A stretch of 32,000 nt of DNA from Candidatus Saccharimonadota bacterium. Lineage in GTDB: Bacteria > Patescibacteriota > Gracilibacteria > Absconditabacterales > Absconditicoccaceae. Below the pieces are notes generated by a model. That model was not told the DNA's origin. It worked only from the letters and a program-made list of their open reading frames with translations, and did no database searches. A program made the position numbers and the translations under genes. The DNA is taken from NCBI GenBank assembly GCA_030429145.1, contig JAUIDC010000001.1, positions 480,001-512,000 on the forward strand, given 5' to 3'. This document shows, in pieces, positions 1-30,714 of the stretch (position 1 is the stretch's first letter; each line of letters opens with the position of its first letter).

Positions 1-368
1 GCAAGAAGAAACCTTGGCAGTACTTTTTTTAGTTCAAATGCGTCTTTGCTGAAAAACGATTTGAGAATGCCCGCAAGAAAGAGAAATCACAGTATGAAGT
101 TTGCTATGTTCTTCATATAGTTCCATAGCTTAAAGAGAGCGCTATCGAGATGGATGAATGTACCATAGATGAAATCATTGGACATAAGCTTCCCTGCGAG
201 AAATGCGAGGAGCATCCATCCCCATGAAAGAACCTTTACTATGGCATTAAAGATTTCAACAGACCATGATACTGCAGGATCTCACTCGGCGGCAAAAGCT
301 GGATGTATCCAGAAGAGACATCCTAGTCAGATTAGTATAACTAACGCTTTTGCGTGCTGTTTCATCAT
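1..368 (-). CDS. N-terminal part of a polytopic membrane protein that runs off the left edge; paralog of the N-terminus of 371..2965; translated with UGA=Gly
   Basis: ATG at 366-368 lies 2 nt after the TAA of the upstream gene. Reads MMKQHAKALVILI[TGA]LGCLFWIHPAFAAE[TGA]DPAVSW...HLDSALFKLWNYMKNIANFIL[TGA]FLFLAGILK. It aligns with ...QLDSALFTFWNIVKNFANFAL[TGA]FLFLRSILK in the neighbouring gene, with TGA at the same column. It has 3 in-frame TGA and no TAA/TAG. Confidence 0.6.
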
Positions 369-370
369 GA

Positions 371-4294: not shown

Positions 4295-6301
4295 TTATTG
4301 TCCTCTTTGTATTTTTTTCTCGAGATTTCCTGCTGTGGTATTGATGGCGTTCATAGTGTCGGCTACTTGTTGCCACAGGAGAGCATTTTGACTCATAAAG
4401 TCGCTAATGAGCGTTAACATGTCGTTGTTGAGCGTTTTTGCTAGGGTATATGGAAATGAAGGATCGAGAGTGTTCGTCTGTTCTGACGAAGCATAGAGTG
4501 AAAGATTGGTAGAAGCTTGCTGCTGTTTAACTGGATTTGGGAGAATGATATATTTGTTTCTTTCCTGACCAACAGGACTATCTATGTACCTTCCTTGGCG
4601 AGCGCGGTCAGCGATAGCCTGCTGCTGTGATTTCTGAGCATTTTCTTTGTCTTTGTAGAGATTTGAGTCATAGATTGGTTTGAAAGCGATATTCATATCA
4701 AATGAGAGGATTTGATTGAGTTTGATCTTCGAAAGGGATGTGTCGAGAAATTCAGTGCTTTTTGTGTGTTTCATCAGCTGCCCAGAGTTTTTGAGCGCTG
4801 TGAGCACTGCATTTATCTCATCGACAATCTCTTCGACAGTTTTGACGGTCTTTCATCCGATAACCTCGGTCTGTGCAGTCGGTACAGTACAGACGCTGAT
4901 ACCAAAGATGCCGTTGTCGCTGTACTTTGTCCCACACAGACACTGCGCTTGGCAGACAGCTTTGTCTGCAGGAGCCAGTCCATCACATCTTGATAAACAA
5001 GAGTTTGCAGTGCTGTTTGGGTCGTTAGTCGAGCCATTGTTGCTTGATCCATTTTGGTTAGCAGAGCTACCTAAATTGGCTACTGCTGCGCTTGTTGGGC
5101 TGTTTTGCTGTAAACTTGAAGATCTGAGTGTCTGAGCAAGCGCAGCTGGTGCATTTATGGCACTATTGTATGTGCTGAGAGCTGAGGCGAGATTTTGTGC
5201 CTCAACGATCTGATTAGTTGCAGTCTGTTCAGCGCTTATTGTCGGTTCTTGTGTTGATCCAACAGGAGTGACGCATACGAGGCTGTTTTGGGGATTTGCC
5301 CCTATTGATTGACTATTGCTACGCGTGCTGGTTGATGCGCCATTGGGACTACTTGTAGTAGTCGTGCCTTGTACCGTCTGATGGTAGTTTGAAAGTTGAT
5401 TGAGTGACTGCGTTGCAGATACTGAGACAGATGTACCGACACTGTTCGTAGAAACTGCTGTGCTTGAGCGAGTGGCGCTTACCCCTGCTGATTGAGTATT
5501 ACCAAATGTGATACCGGCGTTGGTAGTTCCACCATTGCCACTCGGATTGAAATACGTCGGTGAGCCTCCAGCTCATCACAGACCAGGGAAATCATAGAGT
5601 ATAACTTCAGGAGCTGCGGTATTTGACTTGAAGAGGACATCTCCGATCATTTGCATGTCTAACAGTAGATCAAATGGACTGTCGTCCAGTGAACCATTGT
5701 AGAAGATGTCGTCACCACGATTCGCTGCATCCATAGTATTTTTCTTGGCTGCAATACTTATCGTATTGGTAAATGCTTGTGAAACAACCTGTCTACAGTA
5801 CGTGTAGGCTTCCTGTGAGTAGTTATCGTTCAATTGAAACTCCTGAAAATCTTGTCATTTTGCGCACTGAGCGACTCTTACGCAGCTTCTGACAAGCTGA
5901 TCGTTGTCCACAGCAAAGCTTGGTTTGCCGGTATAACCCGCAAACGATGCATTGAGTATTGGATCGCTAGCTGCGATAGTAGAAATGTCTGACGAACTGA
6001 GAGAGCATTCGTATTGTGCATTGAGGTTGTCTGCGACGCTTGAAAATGCCTCAGAGATAGAGCCTAGGGTGTTTTTTCTGGCGAGTGAGTAGGCCTGATC
6101 GTATATATTTCCTCACTGTGCGAGCGATTTGGTGAGAGCAGAAAAATCTTCTTCTTGGCTACGAAGATAGGCCTGTTGGATCAGTGTATCAACGGGGAGT
6201 ACAGAGACTGCATATATATAATGTGGAGCTACAAGAAAACTACCAATCGCAATGATGGTGAACAAGCTGTATGAGAGAAGGGTTTTGCGTGATAGTTTCA
6301 T
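4295..6301 (-). CDS. 668-aa secreted or anchored protein of unknown family, with a central Ser/Thr/Asn/Gly/Ala-rich low-complexity region and a Cys cluster
   Basis: Track ORFs 6113..6301, 5576..5833 and 4295..4807 share one frame. Gaps 5834-6112 and 4808-5575, read codon by codon, contain only TGA stops (6113, 5855, 5576, 5573, 4853). The true stop is TAA at 4295-4297. N-terminal hydrophobic segment: MKLSRKTLLSYSLFTIIAIGSFLVAPHYIYA. Cys cluster: CLSRCDGLAPADKAVCQAQCLCG. Confidence 0.75.
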
Positions 6302-6327
6302 GAGCCTTGCAAGAGATAAAGAGCATG

Positions 6328-7479
6328 TTATTGTTTTTGTTGTACATTTCTTAGTTTGTAGTAGAGTTGGTGTATTGGTGTGTAGATACGGAGTAATGAC
6401 TTCCTAAAGGCTATAATATCCTCATAATAGGCAAGTAGCCCAATATGGATAGGAAAGGCAGCCTGCATGTTTTGGAGCGTTTTCTCGGTAAATGCGACTG
6501 CTTCCTCACTGAGAGCAACTTCTTGCCTGAGGCGCATCCTTTCCTGGTCTGCTTCCATAGATGTGTCACTATAAGCGCGGAATTTGTTGTATGCTGGGAA
6601 TTGGAGCTGTTCGATGGTTATAGTAATGAATAGTTTGTAGAAAAGCAGTTCATTGTAGAGGAGATTGTGGAAAGACTCTCGAGAACTTGTGTTGAGGTTG
6701 CTGTTGTCAAAGGCACAGACGAGGAACTCTTTTGATGTCTCAGTACATTTTTTCCCCTGTGCTGTCAATAGTCTTCACGCATCGACATAGTTGGTCTGCT
6801 CTGTAAGTGTTTGTGCTTGTTGGATGAACTGTGCAAGGACATTACGTGTTTGTGGATGGAGACAAGGAGCCTCTTTTTCAGATCCTTGCGTTGCTCCAAG
6901 ATAGGTGACATTTTTGCTACCACAGATGCTATCACCAGGTCCAAAATAGGTATCTGAGAATGCCTTAATAGCTTCGTCAATAGATCATTCCTGGTAGCTA
7001 TAGAGCTGAGCGAGCTTTATCTTGCTGAGATCATTCATGACGATGGCAAAGAGCTGAGGGAAGAAGCTAGCAAGATCACATGAGGTCATGTCTCCATCTC
7101 GTTTGCAACCCGCAATCTTTTCTTGCTCTCGGTCAAAGGAGTTTGCATATTGCTTTGCTAGCTCAGATTGCTCGCTGTGGGTACAAAGTATGCTAAGAAA
7201 GAGAGATTGCTTTGGATCATAGTAGAGCCCTGGTGCTGCCGGATCGGTAAATCCTTGTGCCTCGGCCGTTGCCTCACAGTAGGCTTCTATCAGTCACTGT
7301 CTCGATGTATTCCCTTCGAGTCCTAACGACACATTGGTCATAAGGTTGTTCACGAAACCCTCTTTTGTGGTGTCTTCTGAGTATCCTTTTGGTACATTGC
7401 TGAAAACAACTGCGCTTGCGAGTGCAAGAGTAGCGATGCATAGTGTACTCATAAAGATAATCTTCTGACGTTTGTGCAT
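6328..7479 (-). CDS. 383-aa signal-peptide protein, largely helical with several Cys, family not recognised
   Basis: Starts MHKRQKIIFMSTLCIATLALASAVVF. Track ORFs 7294..7479 and 6328..6768 are in frame. Gap 6769-7293 read codon by codon has TGA only (7294, 6985, 6775). The stop is TAA at 6328-6330. Confidence 0.75.
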
Positions 7480-7496
7480 GGTCTCTTATAAATATA

Positions 7497-8867
7497 CTAA
7501 TAATAACATGTTCCTCAAAGGTTACTACATTGATTTTCGCAGGCTTTCCCCAGATTTTGTGTGATACTCTTTGCTTTCTGTGCATCACCAATAATGTTGA
7601 TGGCTCCATAGACAACAATGCTTGTACGTGGCATCTCTCTGGTGATTACCAGTGGATCTGCTAGTACATGGGCTTGCCGTGAGGACTTGCTCTGTGCAAG
7701 GGTCGTGTTGACGTCGGAGAGAAGCGCAGTGTAAAGACTTTCTGATGCGCGTCTTGTGGCAAAGTCAGGAGTTTCAATATCAAAGAGTGATCTGGATGGT
7801 AATGTAATGGCGCTCGCTTCGTTGTCGTTTTTTGTATAGAACTCTTTGACGTCGTTGATTTCACGAGCGAAGCTATTGCCGAGGCGTTGCATGCTGTTTG
7901 CCAGTGCTGAGACGCCTTCTCTGTTGGCGTAAGGTCACTCTATGCCATAGAGGTTTCTGAGAAGGTCATTTTGTTTTTCTCTAAAGCCGAGGTCTTGGCA
8001 CTTAACACTTGATTGCTTTGCAAATGCACATTTTAGTCTTTCGAGCGATGTCTTGATGGTGTCGACAGCTTCCTTTGTGTCGTCCTTCGCTCCATCTCGC
8101 GTCTCTGAGACGTTCTGACCAAATCTCTTATAGGTATCGTCACACTTGTTGATACCTCTGGTACATGCATATTCTTCTTGAAGGGATTCATAATTGATGC
8201 TTGTCAGGCTTATACCCAATTTCTCTCCATGTTTTTCCATAAACACATTGAATCCGTTGGTATTGCCTCCGGCAATGAACCTCTTGTATGCTTGATTGAG
8301 ATCCCGTAGGGCAGCCATGATTTCTGAAGCCGAACTGGTCGGTTCACCTACCACCTCTATAAATGCGTCTTCCTGATCTCCGTATTTATTGAGTACTTCA
8401 GTAATTCTTTGTCTATAGTCTTGAATGTTACGAATGAACGCTCACGCTTGTCACAAGTCAAAAAGTGTATCGGCAATATCTTGATCCAGTTGATCGAGTT
8501 TCTCTCGGTCTCTCATCAGGGCCTTTGAGTTGGTCATCACAGCGAGTTCTTGGCGGACACTTGAGGTCACTATCTGTGTTCCGATGGTTCCCATAAGAAC
8601 ATTGAATGTAACAGCAGTTTGTCCCTTCTGATTGAGGTTGTTTGCGATACGGGTAAGAACGTCAGTGTCTGTGCTTTGCTGGATATTTGTTTGTCTCTCA
8701 TTTGCTACTGTCTGTAGCGTTTGTATCATATCGTATGAAAAATCTATGTATTGATCAATAACGGGTGAAGTACTGGCACATCTCAAACATTGTTCTGCAG
8801 CAAAAGCTGGGGCAGTCAGCCCGATGAGTCAGAGTACACTTACTACAGCTATTGCTCGTTTTTTCAT
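7497..8867 (-). CDS. 456-aa signal-peptide protein, family not recognised
   Basis: Starts MKKRAIAVVSVL[TGA]LIGLTAPAFAAEQC. Track ORFs 8451..8786, 7935..8354 and 7515..7892 share one frame. The gaps contain TGA only (8829, 8451, 8442, 7935, 7515). The stop is TAG at 7497-7499, after ...CSNL[TGA]GTCYY. Confidence 0.75.
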
Positions 8868-8888: not shown

Positions 8889-9740
8889 TTAGTTTGAACA
8901 CATTCTTGTCCCTTCTTGCACTTTTCCGTTAACTGATGAGAAGGTTTCATTGATACGAGAGAATTTATCTATGAGTGTTGCCCGTCTTGTTTCGAGAAGG
9001 TAACTTTTTGTATATGTTTCCCAGACATTGGTCATGAGAGTGTTACTTTTTCTTACCATGAGTGTTTGTATGTATGTCATTTCATCTTCGATGCGTCTTT
9101 TTGCGAGATCTTCACATCAAGCGAGGTTGTAGCGAGAGTCGAGATCACTAGTCGTTACAAAGAACTTACTTGTGACGCAAGCTGCTTGTCTACATACCGC
9201 CGTATATCTTGTTGCGAGATCAAGATCACCGTAGTTTTCTATCTGGCAAGTGTTGTTGTTGATGCGAGCTTTGTATCGGCCTGCTGGGTCCCGTACTTGT
9301 AGAAATGTATTTTGTAGGCTTACGGGAGCATTTCATTTTCCATCGTCTTCTCGTTCTTTGAGCTTTGTTGCCCATTCGTCTCCTTTCGAGTCTTTGCTAT
9401 CACCAAGTTGATCATCAAGTTTGAAGAATCATCTACTCACAAGATGGTCAAAGATATATGGGCTTTCTGCGTTGCTAGTGTTTTGTGTCGGTCCTTCACA
9501 CTCGTTTACGATGGATCCTATCTGACAGCAATATGATTTCAGATCTGCCAGCGCTCCTTCAAGGTCATCGCTACTCAGTGGATTAACAGTAGTAACATTG
9601 ATAGAGCTGAGCGGGTTGAAGTTCTCATTTGCTACCAAGCTACAATCATACAAAATATCAGCACTCGCAAAACTGCTGGCGATGGCCAGTCCTACGAGAG
9701 AGATAGATCAAACTGCTTTATAAAGCATCTGTCTTTGCAT
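8889..9740 (-). CDS. 283-aa signal-peptide, Cys-containing protein, family not recognised
   Basis: Starts MQRQMLYKAV[TGA]SISLVGLAIASSFASA, 5 nt after the giant gene's TAA. Track ORFs 9429..9653 and 8889..9080 are in frame. Gap 9081-9428 has TGA only (9333, 9117; also 9708 and 9429). The stop is TAA at 8889-8891. Confidence 0.75.
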
Positions 9741-9745: not shown

Positions 9746-12700
9746 TTATGGAAGGGGCTCTGGAATAAAACGAGTAGTCGCGACTTCCGTTCCTTGGCGG
9801 TCATAGAAGGCAATAGTGATAGCGTTGTCGTTGTATGAGTAGGTTCCAGTAAATTCATTTTTATATGAGTCAGATATCCAGATGGTTCCTTGTGTTCCAA
9901 TATAGATCTGGCATTGTTCTTGTTTGTCTGCGATACAAGTACCATTGCTAAACGTCTGACCATATCAGTCGTCTAGTTTTTTCTGTCATCGATTTGCTGT
10001 ATCGGTAATAGTAGTGTTTAGAGCACTCTTTCCTTTGAGGATTAGAGAGAAGAGGACTTTGCCAGTCGTTTTCTCTTTGAGGAGAATGGTCGGCGTATTA
10101 GATGTAAACACTACCTGTATATCTATAGCTCATTTGAATGCATCATCAAGAGATATTTCACCAGTGTTTTTGTCGATAGTACCAATGCGTTCTCCTTTGT
10201 CATTGTGGAGTGCAAGTCTATTGTCTTTAATGAATACTCATCCTTGTAGCTGTTGTTGGTTGAACCCAAGAGGGAAGAGCGAAAGAACATTCTTCCCTGT
10301 ATCTACGCCAGTAAGGAGTGATCGTATTCCACCCCTCTCTCTTTCGAAGATCACCTTGCTGTTGTCGAGACCTTCTGAGATGGCTGTATCTATGGTGCTA
10401 GTCGTGTCACTTGGACGGTCGACATTGGTGATAGTTATCTCAGGTTCTTTCCATGATATATTGATATTGCTTGATGCAACATTTCCTTGGTTGTCTGTTG
10501 CAGAAATAGTGAGCACCTCACTGTTGGAGTTATATCTGAGAGAGTTAATGGTCGTTCTTGGTCCTGCTGCTGTTTGGGTGTTTCCATTTGGGAAGATGAC
10601 TGTATTGTTTTTCACTCCACTGTCATCTGACCATTCGATAGCAAGCGAATAGTTATTACCAATAACTGGTTGTAGATTTAATCCGTTTGCTTCGACATCT
10701 CCATTTTGAGACCTGATAAGAGAGACTGTTGCAACAGGTCAGAGGTTATCTCCTGCTGCCTGGATACCTGCTGCTTCCTGATGAGATCGTGCTGAGTTTT
10801 TCTCTAGTAGAGTAGCCGTTCTTCCAAGTGATCTACTACCAAGTTTTGCAACAGAGAGATATTGCCATGCTCTTGGTAGATCTGTAAGAGTCAGACCGAT
10901 AGTGTCGTCGTTGCTGTCAAAGTAGGTCACACGGAGTACGCTACCATTGTTGATAAGGTCGCTTACTCTCTTTTGACCGCCGAGTAGTTCATCATAGAGG
11001 AAGAGTCCATCGAGATTCGTTCCTGATGCGAGGACGAGTACATATTTTGTATTGCTTCTATTGAGAGCATGAGAGAATCTATGATGCACTTTGTCGGTAA
11101 GTTGTACAACATATCCTACGGCACTATTGTTGTCCCATCCTAATGTGATAGTGTCGAAGCTCTGTCCTGCCACGTTGAATCCTTGAGGAGCAGTGTGTTC
11201 ATCTCGTAGCTTAAATGTACTACCTGCTACGTTGAGCCATCCACCTCTTCTTACCTCGTCAGCAAGATCACTAGGCGATTCAAATGAAGGAGTGCGATAG
11301 AGACGAGTAAATCTTGTGGTCGATTGATCTTTTTCTGGGTCTGCATACTTTATCCAGATTTGTTTGCTATCCCATAAGATGATGTCTTCTTTTGCATCAC
11401 CATTGAGGTCATTGCGTATCTGATTTTGTTGTAGTGTATCTATGATGTCCTCTCTGTTGACGACGTTGACCATGTCACCATCCGTATTTTCGACGAAAAC
11501 TCATTTGATATACTGGCTAATGTCTGCCTGAGCGGTTCCTGCATTTGTGCTTCATCCATGTCATGATGGGTTACCAGAGCTATTGGCTGCGAGCAGTATA
11601 GGTTCCTTTTTGTCGTCTATCACTTCTAGTCCCGCATTGACAGCTCCTAGTGTGCGTGAGACATATTGTTTGGTTTCATTGTAGGTGAGGAGTGACATAT
11701 TGAGTTCTTCAGGAGAACGAGTAGCAAGAGCATGCGAGAATCCTTCCATAACTTTCTTATTGAGTTTCAGATAGCTTGTTGTTGGATGAGGCTCTGTCTT
11801 CACTGTGTCGATAAGTTGGTGATTTGCATTGAAGAATGCAGAACTCAATGTCTTGTTGTCCGTGTTGTCGCTCACGAGAGTTGTTTGCAGAGAGTCTATA
11901 AAGAGATCGTAGTCATTTATTATCTTTTCCTGTATCTCACCAATTTCTTTCTTTTTCTCATCTACTATATTTTCTGCTTGCTGACGTATGGCCTCAATAC
12001 CCTCTATATTCATCTTCACCTCTGAAGGTGTGTTGAGGAATGCAATGACCTGATCAAGCTGCACTTGTCTTTCCATCGATGTGTCTACATCACGTAGTGC
12101 ATGTAGTTGAGTGAGGAGATCCTGACGTCAGTCGGTTGTGTTGTCGTACGAGAGATCTCGTCTTTGTGGTCGAGCGAAACCTTGTAGATTGATGTTTCCA
12201 TTGAGATTTCACTGATCAACAGTGTTTTGTAGAGTGTTGCTTATGTCTCCAGCTTCTGCAGAGAGCTCACCGATGTTCTCGCTAACGACATTGGTAAATA
12301 CTTCATTTGTCTTGCCATTGATCTGATCAGCAAATGCTGCGAGGATGTCGTAGATCTCATCAAAGTTAAGTTGCATATTGATATAGGTATCTATCTCAAT
12401 ATCGAAGCCTCTCAGAGGTGGGGTAATTCTTGTGACACTGAGACTATCAAACGGTTCCACAGATCGGCTTCTTTGCGTCATCTGTTCTATCCTTGTTTTC
12501 ACTCCCTTCTCAGCTACCAGTCCAATACCTCATTTCACGATACAGAAGACCTTGGCGATAAATTCAGCCACTTTCAGTGTTTGTTGAATTTGTGGAGCTA
12601 TCTTTGGTATACGAGGTGCCGGAGGCAGTGTCGGTAGATTAAGCTCGATGTTTGGTATAAATGATGGAAGTTCTGGTAGTGTCGGTGGCATAGGAAGTAC

Positions 12701-15700
12701 TGGTATCTGTGGTATAGACACATTGAGATTCGTTTCTAGATCTATAGTTGGAGGAGTTGGTAGGTCTGGAACTCTTGGTAGTGGTACATTCAATGGAACG
12801 AAATTGAATTTAGGTAGGACAATGTCCATGCCAAGATTTATATTGGAGAGGTCTATATTGATGTTTGGTATCCTGAAATTTGGTATCGGTAATACAGGGA
12901 GATCAATACAGAGGAGACTCAAGGTACAAGAGTAGAAGTCGTAATTGTCTACCTTACACTTTCCACACTTTGTCTTCCAGTTTACCGAGAAGTCTATGAG
13001 CACTTGCCATGTTTTGACTGCGCTGATGAGGAGAATGATAGCATCTACATATTGCTCAAATCTTCTTGCGTTGAGTTGCAGCCAGTTTGTTATACCATAG
13101 GTGAAAGTAGATATAGTATCAGAGACTTCTGTAAGATATCTTTGTGATACACCAAGCCATTTATTGAGTTCAATTGGAAACTCTCTGTACTGTTCAAGTA
13201 CATTGATATTTTGTTTTAGTGCTCTGACTACCTGCGCAGATTTGCTACTGACGCTAATGTACTGTTGTAGTTTTTGTTCACATGCACTTCTTTCAAAAGC
13301 AGATGAGTATGCAGCACATGTGCCTTCTATACTTTGTGCTAACTGATTTCGCTCTTGTAGTGTTCTTTCATTTCTCTCTGCTCGGTCGGTGAGATAACCC
13401 TTATATTTTGTTAAGTCTTCTTGTGCGATGAAAGGAACCTGTATATTGATGTTCTTCGTATTGATGTTGATGAGTGGGACGTTTTCAAAAAGAGAAGAAA
13501 GAGCGTCGAAAGGATTTGAGACTGTATCACTATTTTGTCTCATACCTTCTCTACTAAAGAGGCTTTGTGCAACATTTTTTCTTGCCGATGGTCCTGGATC
13601 TGTCTGATTTTGGACATCCTCATAGAGCTGCCCAAGTCTGTCGAGAGAGAGGGTGTCAAATCACTCAAAAAGAGAGGATAGTTCAGGTAGATAGAGATTG
13701 ACTTGTAGGTTTGTCAGATTGTTGATGATATATCTGATCTGATTGTCCATCCACTTGTTGATGATACATTTTACGAGGCCTTTCACATTTCCGCCTTCTA
13801 TTTTAAGGTTGATAGATTGTCATCATCTGAGTGATTCGCTACCTGCAGAAAATCTCGCAGATGAGACATATGCCGGTTCTTGATCAAAATGTATAAGATT
13901 TCATGCATAGCCTCCACCTGGAGCAGAACTACTTCCCGGAGATGATGTTGCACTACCTCCTGGAGTAAGAGCGAAAGGAGAAGAAGGTCTGTTAGGATTG
14001 TTTGAAGGACGGTTACATGTTCCACCTTGTGCGAGGTTGTATTGTCGTGATGGCACGGTAAGTTGTGTGTTGGCAGGATCATTGTTGTTTTTGTCTTTGC
14101 CAAAGTTTTTCGCAAGGACGATACAGTTTCCTGCTATATGTCTAAATGGGCTTGGAATCTTTGCGCCTACAGTATAAGGGCCAAAACAGATTCCGATACC
14201 GACACCCATGGTAAGTGTTGGAGACACGTAAATTCTTATCATAGAAGGATATGCACCACCTGGTCCCCAGTAGAATCCATCGGTAGAGCCTTTGAGTCCA
14301 TATGGAAATGGTACGGTATAAGGACCAGCATAAACAGTTCCTGGGAAGAAGAAGGCAGGCAGTCCTTTGTCTACCATGAGTTTACATCCAAATATATTAT
14401 ATGTTCCTGGCGAGAGGAAAGCCATATTAAACGGCACTGGTGGTCAGCTAGTTGCTCATCATTTGCCAAGCTGAAATCACTGGCAGAGGCCCTTTATCGC
14501 AGTGTCTACTTGTAACTCTGCCTCATCAACAAAGTCCTGAAATGCTTGATTGTTGATGTCTATCGAGAGATTGCCACCTTGGATAAATGTCTGTCACTGA
14601 TTCCATTGCTCAAGTACTTCATCCATGCCTGGCATGTCTACAACTTGTGGATCATCACTGTCTGCAGCTTCTTTAATTTTTCACTGCACATCAGCAAGAA
14701 GATTCTTTACAGCATTTTCTGCTTCTTGTTGTGCTTGTGTAATATCACTTGCTAGATTGATATATGACTCTGAGAAGTTCTTGCCTCTGTCAGACATGAA
14801 TGTTCGATAGCCCTGCTGGCAGCTATCTGTAGAGTAGGTTTTTATGTCGGTGTACTCATCTTTGTTGATGTCTTCTAACTCTATGCTAATCAGCGTCGGA
14901 GCGACATAGTTGAGTGTATAAGAAAATGAAACAGTTTGTCAGGCCTGTAGGGTGATGTTGTCTACCATATACTCGTATCCATTGGATATGTTCCAGTCTA
15001 CGACTGATGCTGTCGGTAGTGTTCATCTATTTCGTGATGAGATGCTACCATCATCATTTTTCTCGATCTGTCGTGGTCCTTGTATCTGATCAAGGTAGGT
15101 GAATTGTGTAGATTGTCTCGCTGTAAGAGTAACAGTTACTTTTATCTGTTCTCCATCAGTAAGTACGCCATTTGCTGTCCTTGAGTATTCTTTTGCAATA
15201 CTGATAGGGGAATTATTGTCCAATAAATGAATTGGCATATAGGCAATGTTTTCTGTGGTGATATTGTTTTCGTATGAAGGTAGTTTACTGATTGGCGATG
15301 AAGAGTACTGGATAACTTCAGGGAGCCCACTGTTTACGATGTTTGTGACATCTAGTGTTGAGAAGTCGCTGTCTTTTCCTTTGACGAGATTTTGAAATTG
15401 TGGCTGAGATGCTAGAGCGGAGTCTGTATCATTGTTAGGATCTTCTTCAGCAGGAAGAGTCAATCATCTTCGATGAACAAGGCTGTTGTCATAAATCTTT
15501 TGTCCTGGGGTGAGTGTAACGCCGTACGATTTGATAAGTTTTTTATTTGCATCAATTCTTGTCTGTCGGTTTTCATCACAGTCGCTGATATTCTTGGAAA
15601 TATAATTGTCTCATGCTGATGAGTTTCCACCATAGAAGAGCGTAATATTTCAGAGGGTATCATTGGTAACAATATCTATGCTTCCATCATTATCCATGTC

Positions 15701-18700
15701 TCTCACAAACATCTCATGGGCGTTTTTTATGTCCTCATCACCTCATGGTATAGCAAGACATATTTGCTTTCCATCAACGTCCATTTTTCCTTCGTTATTT
15801 TTATATACTCTGAGAGTATCTTTATTTGTCTGTACGATGATATCTTCATAACTATTGCCGTCTGCATCACCAATAAAGACATTTTTTATACCATCAGCAA
15901 TGAGCATAAGCATTCATAGGTCATTGAATGGCTTGTTTTCACCTCCGTGATTTTTGAGTATTCTTACACTTCCATCAGTGTAAATTACAAGCAAATCTTT
16001 TTGTCCACTTCTGTCTAGATCGAATGGTAGTGTTTGAGAGATGCTTTTCTCCGATTCCGTGAATGTAAGTTCACCGATACCAGCATCGTAGTCTGTTGAA
16101 ACAACTTTGCTATTATTACTCTGACGTGCGATCAAAGGATCTCCGTAGGTGATGAGAAATGGAGATGCCCCGTGTTGAGTCGATTCTCATACATTGTCTC
16201 ACTGGGCAAAAGCTGTAGCTGCTTGGAAAGTATTTTTTCGATTGGTCTGTGTGTCTGCGTCACGACTTTCCTCGATACCTCCATTCCAAGAAGTTTGAGA
16301 ACTGAGAGGAGATGCATTTCTGTCGTAGACTATCCATCATGCAGGACTATTTGTCGATCATCCAAGCCAGCTCTTTTCTACTCAAGCATTGTCGCTAAGA
16401 TTAAAATAGTTTTCTTGTAGGCTCGCATGAAGACGAAGTGTTCCCACGCGTTTCCCTTGTAGTCTTACCTCCCATATCATATCGCGGTTGTTGTCATAGT
16501 TCTGTGTTGATACAATTTCAGCTGCGTTGTTATTGCTGTTAGGATTCCAGACGGTTTCTCCATTTACTACAATAGATCTGTTTTGAACAGTGTTTGAAGT
16601 AATCGAACTGTCGAGCTGTTCAGGAGTGTAGATGATAGTGTTGTTCCCTATGCTTTCATTGGTAGCTCACTGTCTTACTGCGAAACCATTAGCATTTCCT
16701 AGAGAGACATATCAATACTTATCTAGATCATAGATAAGTTGATTATCTTTTGTACTAAGTGTTACAGTATGACTGTCATATATTTGTCCGTTTTGACTGA
16801 TGCGTGCAAGAGCAGGCATGACGCGTTCGGGGTGTGTTAAGAGCGTGGTGACGGCTATAGTCTTATCTGAAGAGCGGATAGTATCCCCAGCTTCGTTGGC
16901 TTGTTCTGTGAAGTAGCCCCATTTGTTTCATCGGTCATTACCAGCAAGAAGGAGGTACATCGCATTGAGGTTTGATGACTTTCGTTGTGGCGCCAAAGTA
17001 GTGACTGTCTGAGTGTCACGTAATTGCTCATTAATATTTTTATTAGCTATCTCAGCATACAGATAATGATTGCCTCCTATTTTGCCGCTGTCGATAGTGA
17101 ACGAACCAACGCCATCTTCATCAGTGCTTACCGATGTATTTTTGTTTCCATTGATAGTTATGTCTCCGATAGCTGTGATATTAACTGTCGTCGTGCTCGA
17201 AACAGGGTTGTTTCGTCTGTCATAGACCATTGCTCTTGCAGAAAATGTTTTGTCGGCAAGCATGTTTTCAGGAGTGAGCAGTGCTACGCGATATGGCTCT
17301 GCCGACTCAATAGTTACAGGAATTGTTTGGAGGGTAAGTCATGGGACCTCTATCGTTAGAGTGTCGTCTCCTGCGCGGAAAGAAGGATATAGGAGGATAG
17401 TTGCAACACCGTTTCTTATAGAGAACGATTGTTGTTCGACAAACTCTTTTGATGTGATGTTTCTTCATGACACAGCATATGTTGTTTGTTTTGAGCTACC
17501 TGGTATGAGTAGTCCGTTTGTGCTTCTCACGATAGCAGTAGAGTCTAGAGGATTGCCATTTGTATCTGTGAGTGTTAGTACAACTCTTGGTAGAGCTGAC
17601 TCTTGGAGCTGCGCCACGTTGTTTTGTGTTGAGAAATAGTTGTCGGTATTTTCAGGGAGTGTGATATTTATGTTAGATGCTGTTTGAGAGTTGTATTTTA
17701 TTGAAAGTGTTCCGTTTGTCAGAGAGAGAGATTTAGATGCACGAGGCGCAACACTTGTAGAATTTGGGTTGATAGGTTCAAGAACGAGATCTATCGATAA
17801 TACATTTCCAGGAAGGTTTGCTGTGTCAAGATAGTATGCTTGTGTATCATTGAGTTGTTGCAATTGGATTTCCCTTTCAGCTGTTCCGTTGCTGATGATC
17901 TGTCAGGCAGAGGTGGTTAGTCTATATGTCGTTGTGGTTTGTTCTACTTTATTTCCGTAGGTGTCATAGCCTGCGACTAAGATAGGGAGCTGAGAGTTGT
18001 AGAGAATTCTCTCTGTCGGTGTGATAATCTCTGCTCTTGTCATAGCTCCTGCTACGATAGGTATAATTATCTGTTTTTCTGCACAACGAGAACCTTGACA
18101 GACTTTGACATCCAATATGCTTGAACCTACATTTGTTGAAGCGAGGCTAATAGGAATAGCGCGTGGGTTGGTAAAGAGGTTTTCTTGGAAGACATATTCG
18201 GACTGACAAAGGTTTCTGTTGTTTGCGATCGGGCAATTGTCTCCTGTTCCACTGAGGCGCACTGTAAGCGATCCCAAGTCATCTTTACTAGTGAGACTGA
18301 GGGCAACATCATCTCTATCGTCCATACTCACACTTGCTTTGTTGAGTCTCATAGTAAGCGATGCATCGAGAGAACGAATGAGTGCTTGTGCATCTTGTGA
18401 AAGATTTTCACTTCCTCCTCATATCAATGCTTTCCATTTGTCACTAAAGCGCTCTACGTTGTCTCATCGCTGTGTTGCTGTTTGCTCAAACTGATCAAGA
18501 GAAAGAACAGGTCACTGAGCATTGTTGAAATTGATTTTTACTACATCAGAAACAGTGAGCTCTTTCAAAGAGTCCATCCAACAAGAGAGGGCTTTAGGCC
18601 ACTTTAACAATGGTACTGTCGCATTTTTTTCGATACCGCATCTTTTGTTCCTTTCTGTTTCTATCATTTCCAATCATGCATTTTGTGCATCGCTACGAGT

Positions 18701-21442
18701 ATTTGCTGTTGCAGAAGCAACAATCTTTTCTTGGTTGATAGAAGAGACAATAGCAGGTGTTGTAGTATTCTCTATGATATCATTACCATCGGAATTGATA
18801 TAGACTAGTTCATATCATTTTGGTTCGTATTCAGGCGTGATAGCAGAGGAAGGGTTATCATTTTTAGTAAGATATTGTTCCACGACGTATCCAATCTTTT
18901 TGTTGATATCCAAAGAGGACTGATTGTTTTGGAGATCAGTCATCAGGTCATTTGATGCTGGTTTAGTATATCGTCAAAGGTTATGTCGGTGGAGTATTTG
19001 TGCGACCTCGTTAATGGTGTTTTCTCCAAGTACGTTGATGAAGAAGTCGCTAGGAAGAGTATTGTAAGAGCGTCATTTAGGCGATGCGAACTGATCTACA
19101 GTTGTCAGCTTGTCATAGGCAGCAGCTCTTGATGCATAATAGCTCGCTGCTTTTGTGTTTTCCTGTGAGAGTGTAAGATTGATCGCTGTCACCTTTTCTT
19201 GTAAGTATTGTTTGATAGCATCTGCAATTTCGGCAGGAGATTTAAGTGTGAGCGTATCATTGTTTTTATTGTAGACTTCGACATTGTAGATGTTTGGATA
19301 GTCAAATCTGATTGCGCTTCCTCAGATACCTTTGAAAGCAACATAACGAGTGCTGTCGATAGGTCTGTCTTGGGTAAGAGGATTCATATTTTCGATTTGC
19401 TCTGGAGTCGGAGATGTATGAGACTCTAATGTACTGATGGTTTTATAAACATAGTTGTCTCCACAAGCTTCAGGGCTTGTGTTCTGATTGTTATTTGTTA
19501 AGTGTACTCTCGAAGGAGATGATTTATATGTAGCGAAATATTCAACGCTTCCTGGTTGCTTCTGAGGGTAGCCATTGTACCGGTTTTCATTTACTTCTCC
19601 TGGAGGAACTGTCTTGCCACATACAAGCCAAGGAGCAACGCGATACTGTTGTGTTCTATGTAAGAGTGAATTGGTTAACTCTTCAAGAAAGTACATCTCT
19701 TGACTCATTTTTGTGAGAGTCATTTTAGAACCAGCAATATCAAAGACAGGTCAACCAATGCTTGTGTCAAAGCGAGGATTCCATGCCATCTTTGGATTGT
19801 TTTGTTTGAGTTGCATAGTATCTCCATCGATATTGAGAGGACTTATACCTCCCCAATATTTAGTTACAAAGTCATCTATCTCTTGGCTTGCTCTACACTT
19901 TCTATCTTCATAAAATTTTTGATCACTTGGTACAAGCATCGTATTGTAACCTCTAGAACTTTCTACCTGCCTAGAAGAGATACCATAAGAAGCTCCTATA
20001 GATCTGGCTGTATAATCAACATCGATATCATCTTGGTCTCCTTCGGTTGTATAATCATATGTTGTCAAGTTCTGTCGACTTCAAATATTCTTCCATGTGC
20101 CTGGATAGATAGATATATCCTGTGTTGAAGAAACATCGTAAGCGCTTCTTCCAAAATAGAAATTTTCAAATCTCTCTTCCACGAACTTCGGTAACAATGG
20201 AGGCGGTGCACCACATCTGACTTTTTCATATACAAGAGGAATAGGGATGTGCAGATCGTAGTTTTCTGTATCTAACTTATTGTAAAGTGCATCTTCAAGT
20301 AACGAGTTTGCATCTAGTAGAACCACGCTTGTAATATTGTCTTTGAGAACAGTCTTTTTGATGTGGCTATCAACGTCCGTATCAGACCATCTTCCACCAG
20401 CTTTGACATTTTCAGATATACTTGTAAGAAACTCGGGTGTGAAGAGACTCGTATAAGGGTGTACCAGTCCTCAAAGTGACTGTCCGATCATTAGTGTCGG
20501 GATCCTGTCGCTGTCACCTCCGACTTCATTGAGGTCTGCGTCAGCTTCTTGAGCCATCCTATTGAGATTGTTCTTTCGGCTACTGATAGTAGAGTTATAC
20601 TGTTCTCCGATCTCTCCAAGTTCGCTATAATCATCATCTGTAGGTAAACTGTTGTTTGCTGTATAGTTGCTGACCAGAGACACAGCGCTTTCATTCGCTC
20701 CATCTTTAAAGTAGTCTACTATGAGGTTAGTAAACCTATGATAGGTCATGTCTTCATGAAAGAGGAAGCTATTGGTATATCACGATAAGAACTGATCAGA
20801 AAAATATTTCTTGAGTCCAATAAAGTCGTCGTATCGTATTTTATTGCTTGCATAAGCTGCTGGATTTTGATCGTAGTTCCTTAGTTTTTGAAAGAACTCC
20901 GCATATTCAGCCGTGTCATCAAACTGTATCATACTTTGTCGGATGTCTGCTTTTTGATCTCCGTTTTCGTGTGGGACAAAGTAGGTAGAGCTTGGGTCAA
21001 ACACATATGTGGGTTTTTCGAGGTCGGTATATGGGTATATACTTGGATAGACGTAGTTATTTTCTTTGATAACAGGAAGCGGAAGGTCTCCTATGAGGAT
21101 AGTTCCTATCAGTGCTGACTTCTTTTCTTTGATGCCTTCCTGATAGAGATTTTCCAGCATCTTCCATATGTCTGTAGATTGGAAATTATCTTTGTTGATA
21201 GGCATAAGTAGGGCTTTGGTCATCGAACTGCGCTTTTGTAGGTGGTTTTGCGCATACCAGTCGATGTCGCTACGATATTGTTGATAGATGTTTCTATCTA
21301 CAAAGACAGCTATGATAGATTCTGCTGATTCGTCTGCTGCCTGAGCTGTATTACTAAAGCCAAAAATCCACTGTGTGAACGAGTGGGAGAAAAAATATAT
21401 ACCTATCAATATACCTATACTTACTTTGGTTTTTACCGACAT
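9746..21442 (-). CDS. Giant 3,898-aa secreted surface or adhesin-like protein with bacterial Ig-like and FG-GAP-type repeats; translated with UGA=Gly
   Basis: At least 17 track ORFs from 20780..21517 down to 10238..10615 lie in one frame (end coordinate mod 3 = 1). I read every inter-ORF gap codon by codon and found 51 in-frame TGA, no TAA/TAG and no frameshift. The preferred start is MSVKTKVSIGILIGIYFFSHSFTQWIFGFSNTAQA (ATG 21440-21442), which reads as a signal peptide. The stop is TAA at 9746-9748. Confidence 0.85.
12593..12907 (-). repeat. Periodic Pro/Ile/Leu/Asn-rich segment inside the giant protein
   Basis: About 105 aa read IDLPVLPIPNFRIPNINIDLSNINLGMDIVLPKFNFVPLNVPLPRVPDLPTPPTIDLETNLNVSIPQIPVLPMPPTLPELPSFIPNIELNLPTLPPAPRIPKIAP. 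It is preceded by a Cys knot, KCGKCKVDNYDFYSCTLSLLC. Confidence 0.6.
15464..16135 (-). other. FG-GAP/VCBS-like Asp-rich repeat region inside the giant protein
   Basis: Repeats of the DxDxDG type: DLDRSGQKDLLVIYTDGSVRILKN, GDADGNSYEDIIVQTNKDTLRVYKN and DMDNDGSIDIVTNDTL. One more copy lies near 11400 (NDLNGDAKEDIILWD). Confidence 0.55.
16928..18352 (-). other. Bacterial Ig-like (invasin/Big-type) repeat region inside the giant protein
   Basis: Segments typical of Big domains: VAGYDTYGNKVEQTTTTYRLTTS, LTLTDTNGNPLDSTAIVRSTNGLLIPGS and MVYDRRNNPVSSTTTVNITAIGDITINGNKNTSVSTDEDGVGSFTIDSGKIGGNHYLYAEI. A further Ig-like unit lies at about 10238-10615 (ISATDNQGNVASSNINISW). Confidence 0.6.
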
Positions 21443-21550
21443 GAACCAGAGTACTATACAAAGAACCTTACAATGCCTCTTTTCTATGTATATACAGCAT
21501 AATTGCAAGCGTTCCACCTACCAATCCTGCATAAATAATATGTAGTATAT

Positions 21551-21585
21551 AAAAAAGTCCCTTCTGTGAGAGAAAGGACTTTTTG
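21551..21585 (-). terminator. Rho-independent terminator after the fibre-protein pair (symmetric A-run/T-run, could act in both directions)
   Basis: The sequence aaaaaAGTCCCTTCTgtgagAGAAAGGACTtttt has a 10-bp stem with one mismatch and a 5-nt loop, flanked by an A-run and a T-run. It lies 34 nt downstream of the TAATAA stop at 21616-21621. Confidence 0.6.
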
Positions 21586-21618
21586 TTATATGAAAGCACA
21601 CATTTTACTTAGCTTTTA

Positions 21619-23511: not shown

Positions 23512-23562
23512 TTTGAGATCAATAATGATTAAAGAATTTTTATGTTAGTATGATGATTGATA

Positions 23563-26500: not shown

Positions 26501-26589
26501 AACAAACTGCCTAAAAATGCTAGGCCAAGCAACTGAAGTCTGTTGAGTGATGTACGGTGCTTTCTGTGCTTTCTGTGCTTTTGTTTCAT
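23563..26589 (-). CDS. 1,008-aa fibre-like surface protein; longer paralog of 21619..23511 with an internal module duplication and a C-terminal S74 chaperone domain
   Basis: Track ORFs 26374..26589, 26035..26217, 25240..25908 and 24034..25185 share one frame. The gaps have TGA only (26374, 26275, 26035, 25240, 24034, 24019, 23992, 23665, 23596). Signal peptide: MKQKHRKHRKHRTSLNRLQLLGLAFLGSLLVFGSVHA. S74 signature: YIVSDETLKENITPL...IGVIAQHVEAVFPDLV...VEYYNLIAVAIQAVKEI. The stop is TAA at 23563-23565. Confidence 0.8.
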
Positions 26590-26960: not shown

Positions 26961-27089
26961 ATTATTGTCCCTCTTTGGGGATATGATCATTAACAGTTAC
27001 TCTTGTTGAAACAATATATTTAGAAGGTAATAGAGCGGCTACTCTATACTTTTCTCATCACAATTAATTAATGCAAAAAAGAAGAAATT

Positions 27090-30692: not shown

Positions 30693-30714
30693 TTGATTTC
30701 AATGAACATAACAC

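What the first reader, a model, noticed from the sequence alone, without database searches (positions are those of the whole stretch)
9746..21442. One 11.7-kb gene encodes a 3,898-aa secreted giant protein hidden by 51 in-frame UGA codons
All fragments between 21442 and 9746 fuse into a single ORF with no frameshift and no TAA/TAG. It has an N-terminal signal peptide. Going from the N-terminus to the C-terminus, I could read these regions:
- An alpha/beta-looking N-terminal region.
- Invasin-type Ig-like repeats (16928-18352).
- FG-GAP-like Asp-rich repeats (15464-16135).
- A Gly-rich segment (13901-14437).
- A helical plus Cys-knot region followed by a periodic Pro/Ile/Leu/Asn tract (12593-12907).
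- More Ig-like units near the C-terminus.

Giant integrin- or Ig-repeat surface proteins are what one expects for host attachment in episymbiotic or predatory CPR bacteria. Large parts of this protein resemble nothing I can name.
Basis: partly seen in the sequence, partly recalled or inferred. Interest (0 to 1): 0.8.

Follow-up and report, generated by a model that had tools for sequence, protein, structure and literature searches.

The report
Giant UGA-recoded surface protein gene
This is one real 11.7-kb gene of an uncultured SR1/Absconditabacteria-type bacterium that reads UGA as glycine; it encodes a 3,898-residue exported surface protein from a large, already annotated but uncharacterised family, so it is a good catch but not a new kind of thing.

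Summary
Window 9746-21442 (-) is one ATG-to-TAA frame of 3,898 codons with 51 in-frame TGA and no other TAA or TAG.

TGA means glycine (code 25). Against a 62%-identical orthologue, the 51 TGA codons align with 17 TGA, 25 GGN and 0 TGG.

The protein belongs to a conserved family of 3.5-6 kaa proteins in Absconditabacteria/SR1, Gracilibacteria and Peregrinibacteria. The family has at least 814 clusters at 50% identity, and NCBI names members "VCBS repeat-containing protein". A second assembly is 100% identical across the whole gene.

- **Confirmed domain calls:** an N-terminal alpha/beta domain, FG-GAP repeats, a Gly/Pro-rich segment and a periodic Pro tract.
- **Sub-threshold call:** invasin-type Ig units.
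- **Unconfirmed calls:** C-terminal Ig units and a "Cys-knot".

The most conserved part, a Cys/Pro-rich core at aa 2300-3000, matches nothing in Pfam or the PDB.

The gene heads a conserved operon-like array: four secreted Cys-containing proteins, a metallophosphoesterase and two polytopic membrane proteins.

Host or prey attachment is the most likely role. It is inferred and matches what the literature already proposes for giant Absconditicoccaceae proteins. My verdict is a new member of a known kind, of moderate interest.

The parts
9746..21442 (-). Complete CDS of the giant protein (3,898 aa, ATG to TAA, 51 UGA = Gly codons)
   Evidence: frame statistics; full-length homologues; the same uninterrupted frame in 38 related loci; TGA/GGN interchange.
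21335..21442 (-). N-terminal signal peptide or signal anchor (aa 1-36: MSVKTK, then a 23-residue hydrophobic stretch, then AQA/AD)
   Evidence: Read directly from the sequence. All 36 homologues start with a similar hydrophobic stretch. No signal-peptide predictor was available.
20663..21337 (-). Conserved N-terminal alpha/beta domain (aa 36-260; motif GTILIGDLPLPV..YPSIYPYTD)
   Evidence: Conservation profile. AF2 of the orthologous segment has pLDDT above 85 over ~165 residues. Foldseek finds only weak clan-CD-like and Rossmann-like matches, E >= 0.05.
17033..17635 (-). Two Ig-like units of Big_1/invasin type (aa 1270-1470), sub-threshold
   Evidence: Pfam on segments: Big_1 E 1e-4 (22.8 bits, cut-off 34.9) and Invasin_D3 E 1.7e-3 for aa 1375-1470; Glyco_hydro2_C5, Invasin_D3 and Big_1 at about 1e-2 for aa 1270-1380. 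The same three families are significant in distant relative P0027.
15623..16210 (-). FG-GAP/VCBS Ca-loop repeats (aa 1745-1940; loops DLDRSGQKD at 1808, DADGNSYED at about 1859, DMDNDGSID at 1915)
   Evidence: Pfam FG-GAP_3 E 4.8e-8, 33.9 bits against cut-off 26.9, aa 1808-1870. Family-invariant Asp/Gly columns. Motif scan.
14093..14545 (-). Core, part 1: Cys/Gly/Pro-rich hydrophobic block (aa 2300-2450; C..GG.C.P.P.N.AFLAP ... R.Y..PTLT.G.G.A.C.GP)
   Evidence: Among the most conserved stretches of the family. No Pfam or PDB match.
12908..13795 (-). Core, part 2: long helices ending in an invariant CxxC (aa 2550-2845)
   Evidence: conservation; C2826 and C2829 invariant. AF2 of the orthologue gives long helices with pLDDT 70-86.
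12593..12907 (-). Core, part 3: periodic Pro/Leu/Ile tract (aa 2846-2950, ending LPTLPPAPRIPKI), followed by an amphipathic helix with invariant Cys2967
   Evidence: 27 Pro in aa 2801-3000. Many invariant Pro columns across 36 homologues.
9749..12445 (-). C-terminal ~900 aa, less conserved, no recognisable domain
   Evidence: no family match for aa 3330-3898. Peregrinibacteria relatives carry an SLH domain near the C-terminus instead.
8889..9740 (-). g6: 283-aa secreted Cys-containing protein, 5 nt downstream of the giant gene
   Evidence: A homologue lies directly downstream of the giant gene in about 25 related loci. Gap measured.
4295..8867 (-). g5 (7497-8867), g4 (6328-7479) and g3 (4295-6301): three secreted Cys-containing proteins with no Pfam match
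   Evidence: Homologues lie next to the giant gene in about 18 related loci, on the same or the opposite strand.
3042..4256 (-). g2: calcineurin-like metallophosphoesterase, 404 aa, no signal peptide
   Evidence: Pfam Metallophos E 7e-10. Same position in L004, L006 and L036.
1..2965 (-). g1 (371-2965, 864 aa) and the start of its paralogue g1' (1-368, partial): polytopic membrane proteins
   Evidence: Hydropathy. g1 and g1' are 44% identical over 72 aa. Syntenic in L004 and L036. Some homologues are named 'type IV secretion system protein'/'TraG N-terminal' by their sources, which Pfam and NCBIfam did not reproduce.
21549..21584 (-). Terminator-like hairpin plus T-run between g8 and the giant gene, so the giant gene probably starts its own transcript
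   Evidence: RNAfold gives a 14-bp stem, dG -15.7 kcal/mol. The simple consensus scan did not list it.

Best explanation
**What is shown**
This is a single intact gene of an SR1/Absconditabacterales-type CPR bacterium that translates UGA as glycine (table 25). It encodes a 3,898-aa protein of a conserved family of 3.5-6 kaa proteins found in Absconditabacteria, Gracilibacteria and Peregrinibacteria.

From N- to C-terminus the protein has:
- a signal peptide or signal anchor;
- a conserved alpha/beta domain;
- Ig-like units;
- Ca-loop FG-GAP/VCBS repeats;
- a family-specific Cys/Pro-rich core with no known relative;
- a variable C-terminal part.

It is the first gene of a tightly spaced array (gaps of 5-76 nt), whose g6-g3 core is conserved next to the giant gene in many related loci and whose g2 and g1 recur in three. 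The array also encodes four secreted Cys-containing proteins, a metallophosphoesterase and two polytopic membrane proteins.

**What is inferred**
The protein is exported by Sec and stays on the cell envelope. There, together with the co-encoded secreted proteins, it forms a long surface fibril or complex. The FG-GAP and Ig-like modules of that complex bind the surface of the host or prey cell. The conserved Pro-rich core serves as the rigid, disulfide-stabilised part that crosses or holds on to the wall.
For: **One gene**
- Frame statistics support a single frame.
- There are 24 full-length-type homologues with 1023-2045 bits.
- The same TAA/TAG-free frame, with 42-310 TGA, occurs in 38 loci of related genomes.
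- A second assembly is 100% identical.

**UGA = Gly**
- In homologues with normal Trp content, the 51 TGA positions align to Gly in 25-58% of aligned cells (about 45% overall). They align to Trp in at most one cell per homologue, exactly like GGN positions.
- Against the orthologue in L006 they align to 17 TGA, 25 GGN and 0 TGG.

**Family size and architecture**
- The core profile finds 814 clusters with E <= 1e-3. The core always lies about two thirds along a giant protein.
- 106 of the 144 newly fetched representatives also have the N-terminal domain.

**Exported and extracellular**
- The N-terminus is hydrophobic in all homologues.
- There are many conserved Cys residues.
- FG-GAP_3 scores above its threshold.
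- SLH, Big_1 and Invasin_D3 domains occur in Peregrinibacteria relatives.

**Operon**
- Gene spacing is tight, and there is synteny in about 25 loci for g6 and about 18 for g3-g5.

**Core chromosomal gene**
- Ribosomal protein and RNA polymerase genes lie next to the cluster both here and in L001.

**Literature**
- The longest proteins of Vampirococcus (up to 4,163 aa) and Strigamonas are membrane or surface proteins with integrin and similar domains, proposed to mediate host recognition (PMC8080830, PMC13059738).
- VCBS proteins of Gracilibacteria were detected in a metaproteome (PMC11452946).
Against: - No experiment or structure ties this family to adhesion.
- Only about 5% of the sequence matches any adhesion-type domain above threshold.
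- The most conserved parts (the N-terminal domain and the core) have no recognisable fold. The AF2 model of the core has mean pLDDT 53, and Foldseek finds nothing.
- High conservation of the core across three class-level lineages fits a housekeeping envelope role at least as well as host-specific binding, which usually evolves fast.
- The mode of anchoring is unknown. The window protein has no SLH domain, no LPXTG motif and no clear internal transmembrane helix.
- It is unknown whether the signal sequence is cleaved.
Confidence: 0.6

Rival explanations
1. The protein is a general envelope scaffold, that is, an S-layer-like or wall-organising giant protein. It is needed for cell shape and integrity rather than for binding a host.
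For: - The family is conserved in architecture across Absconditabacteria, Gracilibacteria and Peregrinibacteria.
- Peregrinibacteria members carry SLH domains.
- The gene sits beside ribosomal and RNA polymerase genes in two genomes.
- The core is far more conserved than expected for a host-specific ligand binder.
Against: - The window protein has no SLH domain.
- The FG-GAP and Ig-like modules are typical of ligand-binding adhesins.
- Nothing is known about whether these organisms have an S-layer made of this protein.
Confidence: 0.2
2. The giant protein is part of a contact-dependent transfer or feeding apparatus. In this reading it works together with the four secreted partners and with the two polytopic membrane proteins, g1 and g1', which some databases call VirB6/TraG_N-like type IV secretion proteins. 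The giant protein would be the extracellular conduit or penetration device.
For: - g1 homologues are named 'type IV secretion system protein' (Vampirococcus lugosii, Absconditabacterales) and 'TraG N-terminal' by NCBI and UniRef.
- g1 and g1' are syntenic with the giant gene in the L004 and L036 relatives.
- The core has conserved hydrophobic Gly/Pro-rich blocks and long helical hairpins.
- Cultured relatives are epibiotic predators that feed on the host's contents from outside (PMC8080830, PMC12428579).
Against: - No VirB4/VirD4-type ATPase lies in the window or in the 10 kb beyond it.
- The T4SS naming could not be reproduced with Pfam or NCBIfam; the best match was a faint 14.8-bit hit to a Mycoplasma conjugal transfer family.
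- g1 is linked to the giant gene in only a minority of the loci fetched.
Confidence: 0.12
3. It is not one functional gene. It would instead be a string of separate ORFs ending at UGA, a decaying pseudogene, or a collapsed or mis-joined assembly.
For: Under table 11 the region does break into many ORFs. No read data could be examined here.
Against: - Conservation runs straight through the TGA positions.
- TGA and GGN interchange between orthologues.
- There are zero TAA/TAG in 3,898 codons, against 80-172 in the other frames.
- The same architecture occurs in 38 genomes.
- A second assembly is identical across the gene.
- BLAST finds no internal repeats that could cause a collapse.
Confidence: 0.02
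4. The cluster is part of a prophage or another mobile element. This is suggested by the two tail-fibre-like genes with an S74 chaperone domain just upstream.
For: g8 and g9 carry Peptidase_S74 domains. Such genes also lie upstream of the giant gene in L006 and L015.
Against: - The core has no match in 50,697 phage records.
- There are no phage structural or integration genes in the window.
- Neighbours in other genomes are housekeeping genes.
- The giant gene and g6 are conserved without g8/g9 in most loci.
Confidence: 0.03

Closest known systems
Giant membrane/surface proteins of Absconditicoccaceae (Vampirococcus lugosii, Absconditicoccus praedator, Strigamonas methylophilicida); NCBI 'VCBS repeat-containing protein' of Gracilibacteria/Absconditicoccaceae
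   Same: - Same lineage and the same genetic code.
- Same size class: Vampirococcus proteins reach 4,163 aa (PMC8080830).
- Predicted envelope location and an integrin-type (FG-GAP) domain.
- Full-length homology to NCBI entries P0007 and P0008.
   Different: - The papers list such proteins only as a class with adhesion-type domains.
- I found no description in those papers of this particular family, its N-terminal domain, its Cys/Pro-rich core or its linked genes.
- I could not check whether the 4,163-aa Vampirococcus protein is the orthologue.
Integrin alpha-type FG-GAP beta-propellers and bacterial FG-GAP/VCBS adhesins
   Same: Two to three Ca-loop repeats of D-x-D-x-D-G-x-x-D type. Pfam FG-GAP_3 scores above its threshold.
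   Different: - Only about 130-200 of the 3,898 residues are involved.
- A full seven-blade propeller is not demonstrable.
- There is no integrin-like stalk or transmembrane tail.
Invasin/intimin Big_1 Ig-like adhesins
   Same: Sequence pattern (..D..GNPV..) and sub-threshold Big_1 and Invasin_D3 matches in two units. The matches are significant in Peregrinibacteria relatives.
   Different: - Below the Pfam gathering score in this protein.
- No beta-barrel anchor, no LysM domain and no C-type lectin tip.
- The organism is thought to have a single membrane.
Clan CD cysteine peptidases (gingipain C25, clostripain-like C11, caspases)
   Same: The N-terminal domain models as a three-layer alpha/beta sandwich. 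RgpB, a C11 peptidase and caspases appear among the weak Foldseek matches. One family member touches Pfam Peptidase_C25 at E 0.0026. The motif 'LIGD.P.P...YPYTD' recalls C25; this resemblance is from memory only.
   Different: - No match is significant.
- The family's 'WHG' motif reads 'RQS' in the window protein, and there is no conserved Cys. Peptidase activity is therefore unlikely here.

Membership tests
Genetic code 25 (SR1/Gracilibacteria, UGA = Gly) | In-frame UGA in conserved genes falls at positions where relatives have Gly, not Trp | tested here: met
   51 TGA align with 17 TGA, 25 GGN and 0 TGG in the 62%-identical orthologue. In correctly translated homologues they align to Gly in 25-58% of aligned cells (about 45% overall) and to Trp in at most one cell per homologue. 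The g8/g9 paralogue alignment puts G opposite TGA.
Genetic code 25 (SR1/Gracilibacteria, UGA = Gly) | UGA is not used as a stop; genes end in UAA or UAG | tested here: met
   All 11 genes of the window end in TAA or TAG.
Genetic code 25 (SR1/Gracilibacteria, UGA = Gly) | A tRNA-Gly with anticodon UCA is present and release factor 2 is lost | not testable with these tools
   No tRNA gene lies in the window. The 937-kb source contig could not be fetched.
Giant 'VCBS repeat-containing' surface protein family of Absconditabacteria/Gracilibacteria/Peregrinibacteria | Full-length collinear homology: N-terminal domain, FG-GAP repeats and Cys/Pro-rich core in the same order | tested here: met
   24 homologues with 1023-2045 bits; the core lies about two thirds along in every listed representative that is near full length; the N-terminal domain is present in 106 of the 144 newly fetched.
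Giant 'VCBS repeat-containing' surface protein family of Absconditabacteria/Gracilibacteria/Peregrinibacteria | FG-GAP/VCBS repeat above the curated threshold | tested here: met
   PF13517 scores 33.9 bits against a cut-off of 26.9.
Integrin-alpha-type seven-bladed FG-GAP propeller | Seven FG-GAP blades forming a closed propeller | tested here: inconclusive
   Only 2 Pfam stretches and 3 Ca-loop motifs were found. This region was not modelled.
Invasin/intimin Big_1 Ig-like domains | Pfam Big_1 or Invasin_D3 at or above the gathering score | tested here: not met
   Best result: Big_1 at 22.8 bits against 34.9, and Invasin_D3 at 19.3 against 33. The fold may still be Ig-like, since distant relative P0027 passes.
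Clan CD cysteine peptidase (C25/C11/caspase) | Catalytic His-Cys dyad on a caspase-like fold | tested here: not met
   The His of the family's WHG motif is Gln in the window protein, and there is no conserved Cys. Fold matches have E >= 0.05.
SLH-anchored S-layer or wall protein | S-layer homology domain(s) | tested here: not met
   No SLH match in the window protein. SLH is present in Peregrinibacteria relatives.
Sortase-anchored (LPXTG) surface protein | C-terminal LPXTG motif, a hydrophobic stretch and a charged tail | tested here: not met
   The C-terminus reads ...ATTRFIPEPLP, with no hydrophobic tail.
Sec-exported protein | N-terminal signal peptide (n-, h- and c-regions with A-x-A) | tested here: inconclusive
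   The sequence shows MSVKTK, a 23-residue hydrophobic stretch and AQA-AD. That h-region is long enough for an uncleaved anchor. No predictor was available.
Type IV secretion system (for neighbour g1) | VirB6/TraG_N-type family match and co-located VirB4/VirD4 ATPases | tested here: not met
   Only names given by the sources support this. Pfam and NCBIfam give no match. No ATPase gene lies nearby.

The most novel reading that the evidence does not exclude
The giant protein may define a previously undescribed cell-surface apparatus specific to the Absconditabacteria-Gracilibacteria-Peregrinibacteria clade. Its components would be the giant protein, with its ~700-aa Cys/Pro-rich core that matches no known fold; the four co-encoded secreted Cys-containing proteins; and possibly the two polytopic membrane proteins. 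The apparatus would serve for attaching to, and perhaps opening or tapping, the host cell. That would make it more than one more repeat adhesin.
Probability: 0.2. Interest if true: 0.7.

Novelty: new member of a known kind. Interest (0 to 1): 0.35.

Why it matters
How the predatory or episymbiotic SR1/Gracilibacteria hold on to and feed from their hosts is unknown, and giant surface proteins are the standing candidates. This gene is a clean, complete example of one family of them.

The analysis adds several things the annotation does not say:
- The family has a fixed architecture.
- It has a very conserved core of unknown fold, with at least 814 clusters at 50% identity.
- It has a set of linked partner genes.

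Together these give concrete targets for structure prediction, proteomics and localisation in the few cultured relatives.

The case is also a practical warning. Code-11 pipelines shred such genes, and code-4 pipelines fill them with false Trp.

Tried and rejected
- **Predicting the window protein's own structure.** I modelled orthologous segments of P0008 (43% identical) instead.
- **AF2 model of the core.** Mean pLDDT was 53, and Foldseek against the PDB gave no match with E < 3.
- **AF2 model of the N-terminal domain.** It is good for only ~165 residues. Foldseek gave best E 0.05, with a mixed list of clan-CD peptidases, asparaginases and lumazine synthases. A profile search against PDB sequences found nothing.
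- **phmmer of the whole protein against the PDB.** No hits.
- **Chimeric-contig hypothesis.** The plus-strand genes at 27-31.6 kb have no TGA at all, which raised the question. I rejected it because a second assembly has the same junction and continues with TGA-containing housekeeping genes.
- **Recoded-phage or prophage hypothesis.** Rejected.
- **Finding the source contig.** An exact 37-mer scan of the JGI metagenomes found nothing. An exact protein look-up of g10 and of P0181 also failed.
- **Transmembrane reading of the two hydrophobic helices flanking the Pro tract.** Rejected, because both carry family-conserved Lys/Asp/Gln.
- **Internal repeats.** BLAST found none.
- **T4SS identity of g1.** Not reproducible.
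Full report
**Observation**

The stretch 9746-21442 on the minus strand is 11,697 nt. It starts with ATG and ends with TAA. In frame it contains 51 TGA, no TAG and no other TAA. Each of the other five frames of the same DNA holds 80-172 TAA/TAG. At this base composition, the chance of 3,898 codons free of TAA/TAG is about 1e-77.

Under the standard code the region falls apart into short ORFs. A public code-11 gene call of the identical DNA lists at least a dozen small products where this gene lies.

**Genetic code**

All nine minus-strand genes between 371 and 26589 contain in-frame TGA, and every gene of the window stops with TAA or TAG. Two tests show that TGA means glycine rather than tryptophan.

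1. I aligned the protein pairwise to 36 database homologues. Some of these have a normal Trp content of 0.4-1.2%; they are either correctly translated or come from standard-code Peregrinibacteria.
   - In these homologues the 51 TGA positions face Gly in 25-58% of aligned cells, about 45% overall.
   - They face Trp in at most one cell per homologue, which is just how GGN positions behave.
   - TGG positions face Trp, Tyr or Phe and almost never Gly.
2. At the codon level, against the 62%-identical orthologue in locus L006, the 51 TGA align with 17 TGA, 25 GGN, 0 TGG and 9 other codons.

Many database homologues have 6-8% Trp and under 2% Gly, because a pipeline translated them with code 4. 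No tRNA or Rfam element lies in the window.

**Is it one real gene?**

A search of 5.8 billion proteins gave 36 hits. Of these, 24 are full-length-type relatives of 3,286-5,028 aa with 1023-2045 bits. They include NCBI entries named 'VCBS repeat-containing protein' from Candidatus Gracilibacteria and Absconditicoccaceae. More distant members of 136-275 bits include a 5,487-aa protein of a Peregrinibacteria genome.

A scan of one genome per species found 38 loci. All are in SR1, Absconditabacterales, Gracilibacteria or 'Peribacteria' genomes, and one is SR1 human oral taxon HOT-345. The closest is Patescibacteria bin Gw_Eff_bin_18, at 62% protein identity. In every locus long enough to judge, the gene is one TAA/TAG-free frame of 3,500-4,700 codons with 42-310 TGA.

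A profile of the core region finds 814 clusters (at 50% identity) among 1.84 billion representatives. In those that are near full length, the core lies about two thirds along a protein of 3.5-6 kaa.

The Logan contig ERR3428547_6724 (111 kb, seen in two samples) is 100% identical, without gaps, to window 2530-23543 and 17108-32000. Separate products, a pseudogene and a mis-join are thus all very unlikely.

**Anatomy of the protein**

| Region (aa) | Feature | Evidence |
|---|---|---|
| 1-36 | Charged start, 23-residue hydrophobic stretch, AQA/AD: a signal peptide or an uncleaved anchor. All homologues start alike. | |
| 36-260 | Strongly conserved alpha/beta domain | |
| 1270-1470 | Two Ig-like units, sub-threshold | |
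| 1745-1940 | FG-GAP/VCBS repeats | |
| 2300-3000 | Family-specific Cys/Pro-rich core | |
| ~3000-3898 | Less conserved, no family match | |

- **N-terminal domain.** An AF2 model of the orthologous segment of P0008, built with 30 sequences, gives a three-layer alpha/beta fold with pLDDT above 85 for about 165 residues.
  - Foldseek finds only weak matches (E >= 0.05). Gingipain RgpB, a C11 peptidase and caspases are mixed with asparaginases and lumazine synthases.
  - One of 30 members touches Pfam Peptidase_C25 at E 0.0026.
  - The family's WHG motif reads RQS in the window protein, and no Cys is conserved. I do not call it a peptidase.
- **Ig-like units.** For aa 1375-1470, Big_1 gives E 1e-4 and Invasin_D3 gives 1.7e-3. 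For aa 1270-1380, three families match at about 1e-2. The same three families hit the distant relative P0027 significantly in the corresponding part of its protein, N-terminal to its FG-GAP repeats.
- **FG-GAP repeats.** FG-GAP_3 scores above threshold at aa 1808-1870. There are three Ca-loop motifs and invariant Asp/Gly columns.
- **Core.** It has three parts:
  - A Cys/Gly/Pro-rich hydrophobic block (C..GG.C.P.P.N.AFLAP ... PTLT.G.G.A.C.GP).
  - Long helices that end in an invariant CxxC.
  - A ~105-residue tract of periodically spaced, largely invariant Pro (ending LPPAPKIP), followed by an amphipathic helix with an invariant Cys.

  The core has no Pfam or PDB relative. Its AF2 model is poor, with mean pLDDT 53, and finds nothing. 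The two hydrophobic helices beside the Pro tract carry conserved Lys/Asp/Gln, so they are probably not membrane-spanning.
- **C-terminus.** The last ~900 residues are less conserved and give no family match. There is no LPXTG-type ending and no SLH domain, whereas Peregrinibacteria relatives do have SLH.

**Surroundings**

The giant gene is followed at short gaps by, in order (gaps of 5, 21, 17, 26, 38, 76 and 2 nt):
- g6, g5, g4 and g3, which are secreted Cys-containing proteins with no family match;
- g2, a metallophosphoesterase;
- g1 and the start of its paralogue g1', which are polytopic membrane proteins.

A strong hairpin with a T-run (21549-21584) separates the giant gene from the upstream gene g8.

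With code-25 tblastn, a g6 homologue lies directly after the giant gene in about 25 related loci. Homologues of g3-g5 lie next to it in about 18 loci, on either strand. The full order down to g2 or g1 recurs in L004, L006 and L036.

Beyond the window's left end the same contig continues with ribosomal protein genes, tsf and rpoB. The same gene set flanks the giant gene in L001. This is therefore a chromosomal core region and not a mobile element, and the core has no match among 50,697 phage records.

Some g1 homologues are named 'type IV secretion system protein' or 'TraG N-terminal' by NCBI and UniRef. Pfam and NCBIfam do not reproduce this, and no secretion ATPase is nearby.

**How it most likely works**

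What is shown:
- It is one code-25 gene, and a member of a large conserved family.
- It has an N-terminal export signal or anchor.
- It has extracellular-type modules and many conserved Cys.
- It has a conserved set of co-encoded secreted partners.

What is inferred: the protein is exported and kept on the envelope. With its partners it forms a long surface structure whose FG-GAP and Ig-like parts bind the host or prey surface. The rigid Pro-rich, Cys-stabilised core is the wall-crossing or wall-holding part.

This agrees with what has been proposed for the giant proteins of Vampirococcus lugosii (ten longest proteins, 1,392-4,163 aa, membrane-located, with integrin and other interaction domains; PMC8080830) and of Strigamonas (PMC13059738). 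VCBS proteins of Gracilibacteria have been seen in a metaproteome (PMC11452946), although I could not verify that they are of this family.

My confidence by claim:

| Claim | Confidence |
|---|---|
| One code-25 gene | about 0.97 |
| Host or prey adhesin | about 0.5 |
| General envelope scaffold | 0.2 |
| Part of a transfer or feeding apparatus with g1 | 0.12 |
| Phage-derived | 0.03 |
| Artefact | 0.02 |

**Comparison and novelty**

The gene is a new member of a known kind. Giant surface proteins of SR1/Gracilibacteria are described in the literature, and homologues are annotated in GenBank.

I did not find the following described in the papers I searched:
- the fixed architecture of this particular family;
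- its very conserved core of unknown fold;
- its linked partner genes.

These features carry the remaining interest, and they support the more novel reading of a clade-specific surface apparatus. I give that reading about 0.2 probability.

**Verdict**

Interest is moderate, at 0.35.

Noticed in passing
window 27090-31638 (+): Two plus-strand genes use no TGA at all among about 120 Gly codons. At the 14% TGA share of the neighbouring genes, the chance of this is about 1e-8. They also use far more GGG.

The first gene is an S8 subtilase with PKD/Ig_7 domains and a type IX secretion (Por_Secre_tail) sorting domain. The second is a Gln_deamidase_2 protein. Both look Bacteroidota-like; the best named hit is a Bacteroidetes S8 peptidase at 53% identity.

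A second assembly has the same junction and continues with TGA-containing housekeeping genes. This is therefore an island inside a code-25 genome, probably a recent horizontal transfer and perhaps from the host lineage. A T9SS sorting signal should have no use in a CPR cell.
   Followed up: partly
window 21619-23511 and 23563-26589 (-): Two paralogous secreted proteins of 630 and 1,008 aa share 43% identity over the last 241 residues. Each has a C-terminal Peptidase_S74 domain, the intramolecular chaperone of phage tail spikes and fibres, and repeated C.C.-type Cys motifs. They lie directly upstream of the giant gene. Similar genes sit upstream of it in L006 and L015.
   Followed up: partly
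window 1-2965 (-); homologues P0309, P0319: g1 and its tandem paralogue g1' are polytopic membrane proteins. NCBI and UniRef name their homologues in Vampirococcus lugosii and in Absconditabacterales 'type IV secretion system protein'/'TraG N-terminal'. Pfam and NCBIfam scans do not support that name, and no secretion ATPase is nearby.
   Followed up: partly
proteins P0003, P0005, P0009, P0011-P0015, P0020-P0023: Many public translations of this family carry 6-8% Trp and under 2% Gly, because the source pipelines used code 4 instead of code 25. Such entries will mislead alignments and structure predictions.
   Followed up: yes
window 14456-14461 and 13820-13825 (-), aa 2328-2329 and 2540-2541: There are two places with tandem TGA-TGA codons (Gly-Gly) inside the gene. 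They make a handy test for read-through in proteomics or ribosome profiling.
   Followed up: no
L003 23747-29411: In a related genome, the giant gene and g6 are followed directly by a Cas12a (Cpf1)-Cas4-Cas1 locus.
   Followed up: no
L005 9225-9818: In the Peregrinibacteria relative, a 197-aa protein with a prepilin-type N-terminal methylation domain (N_methyl) lies immediately upstream of the giant gene, on the same strand. This may hint at a link with type IV pilus-like export or assembly.
   Followed up: no
L046 14348-20810 and L001 1-8054: The giant-gene cluster lies next to the genes for L10, L7/L12, S2, EF-Ts, S6/S18 and RpoB, both in this organism and in a 31%-identical relative. The chromosomal position is therefore conserved.
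   Followed up: partly
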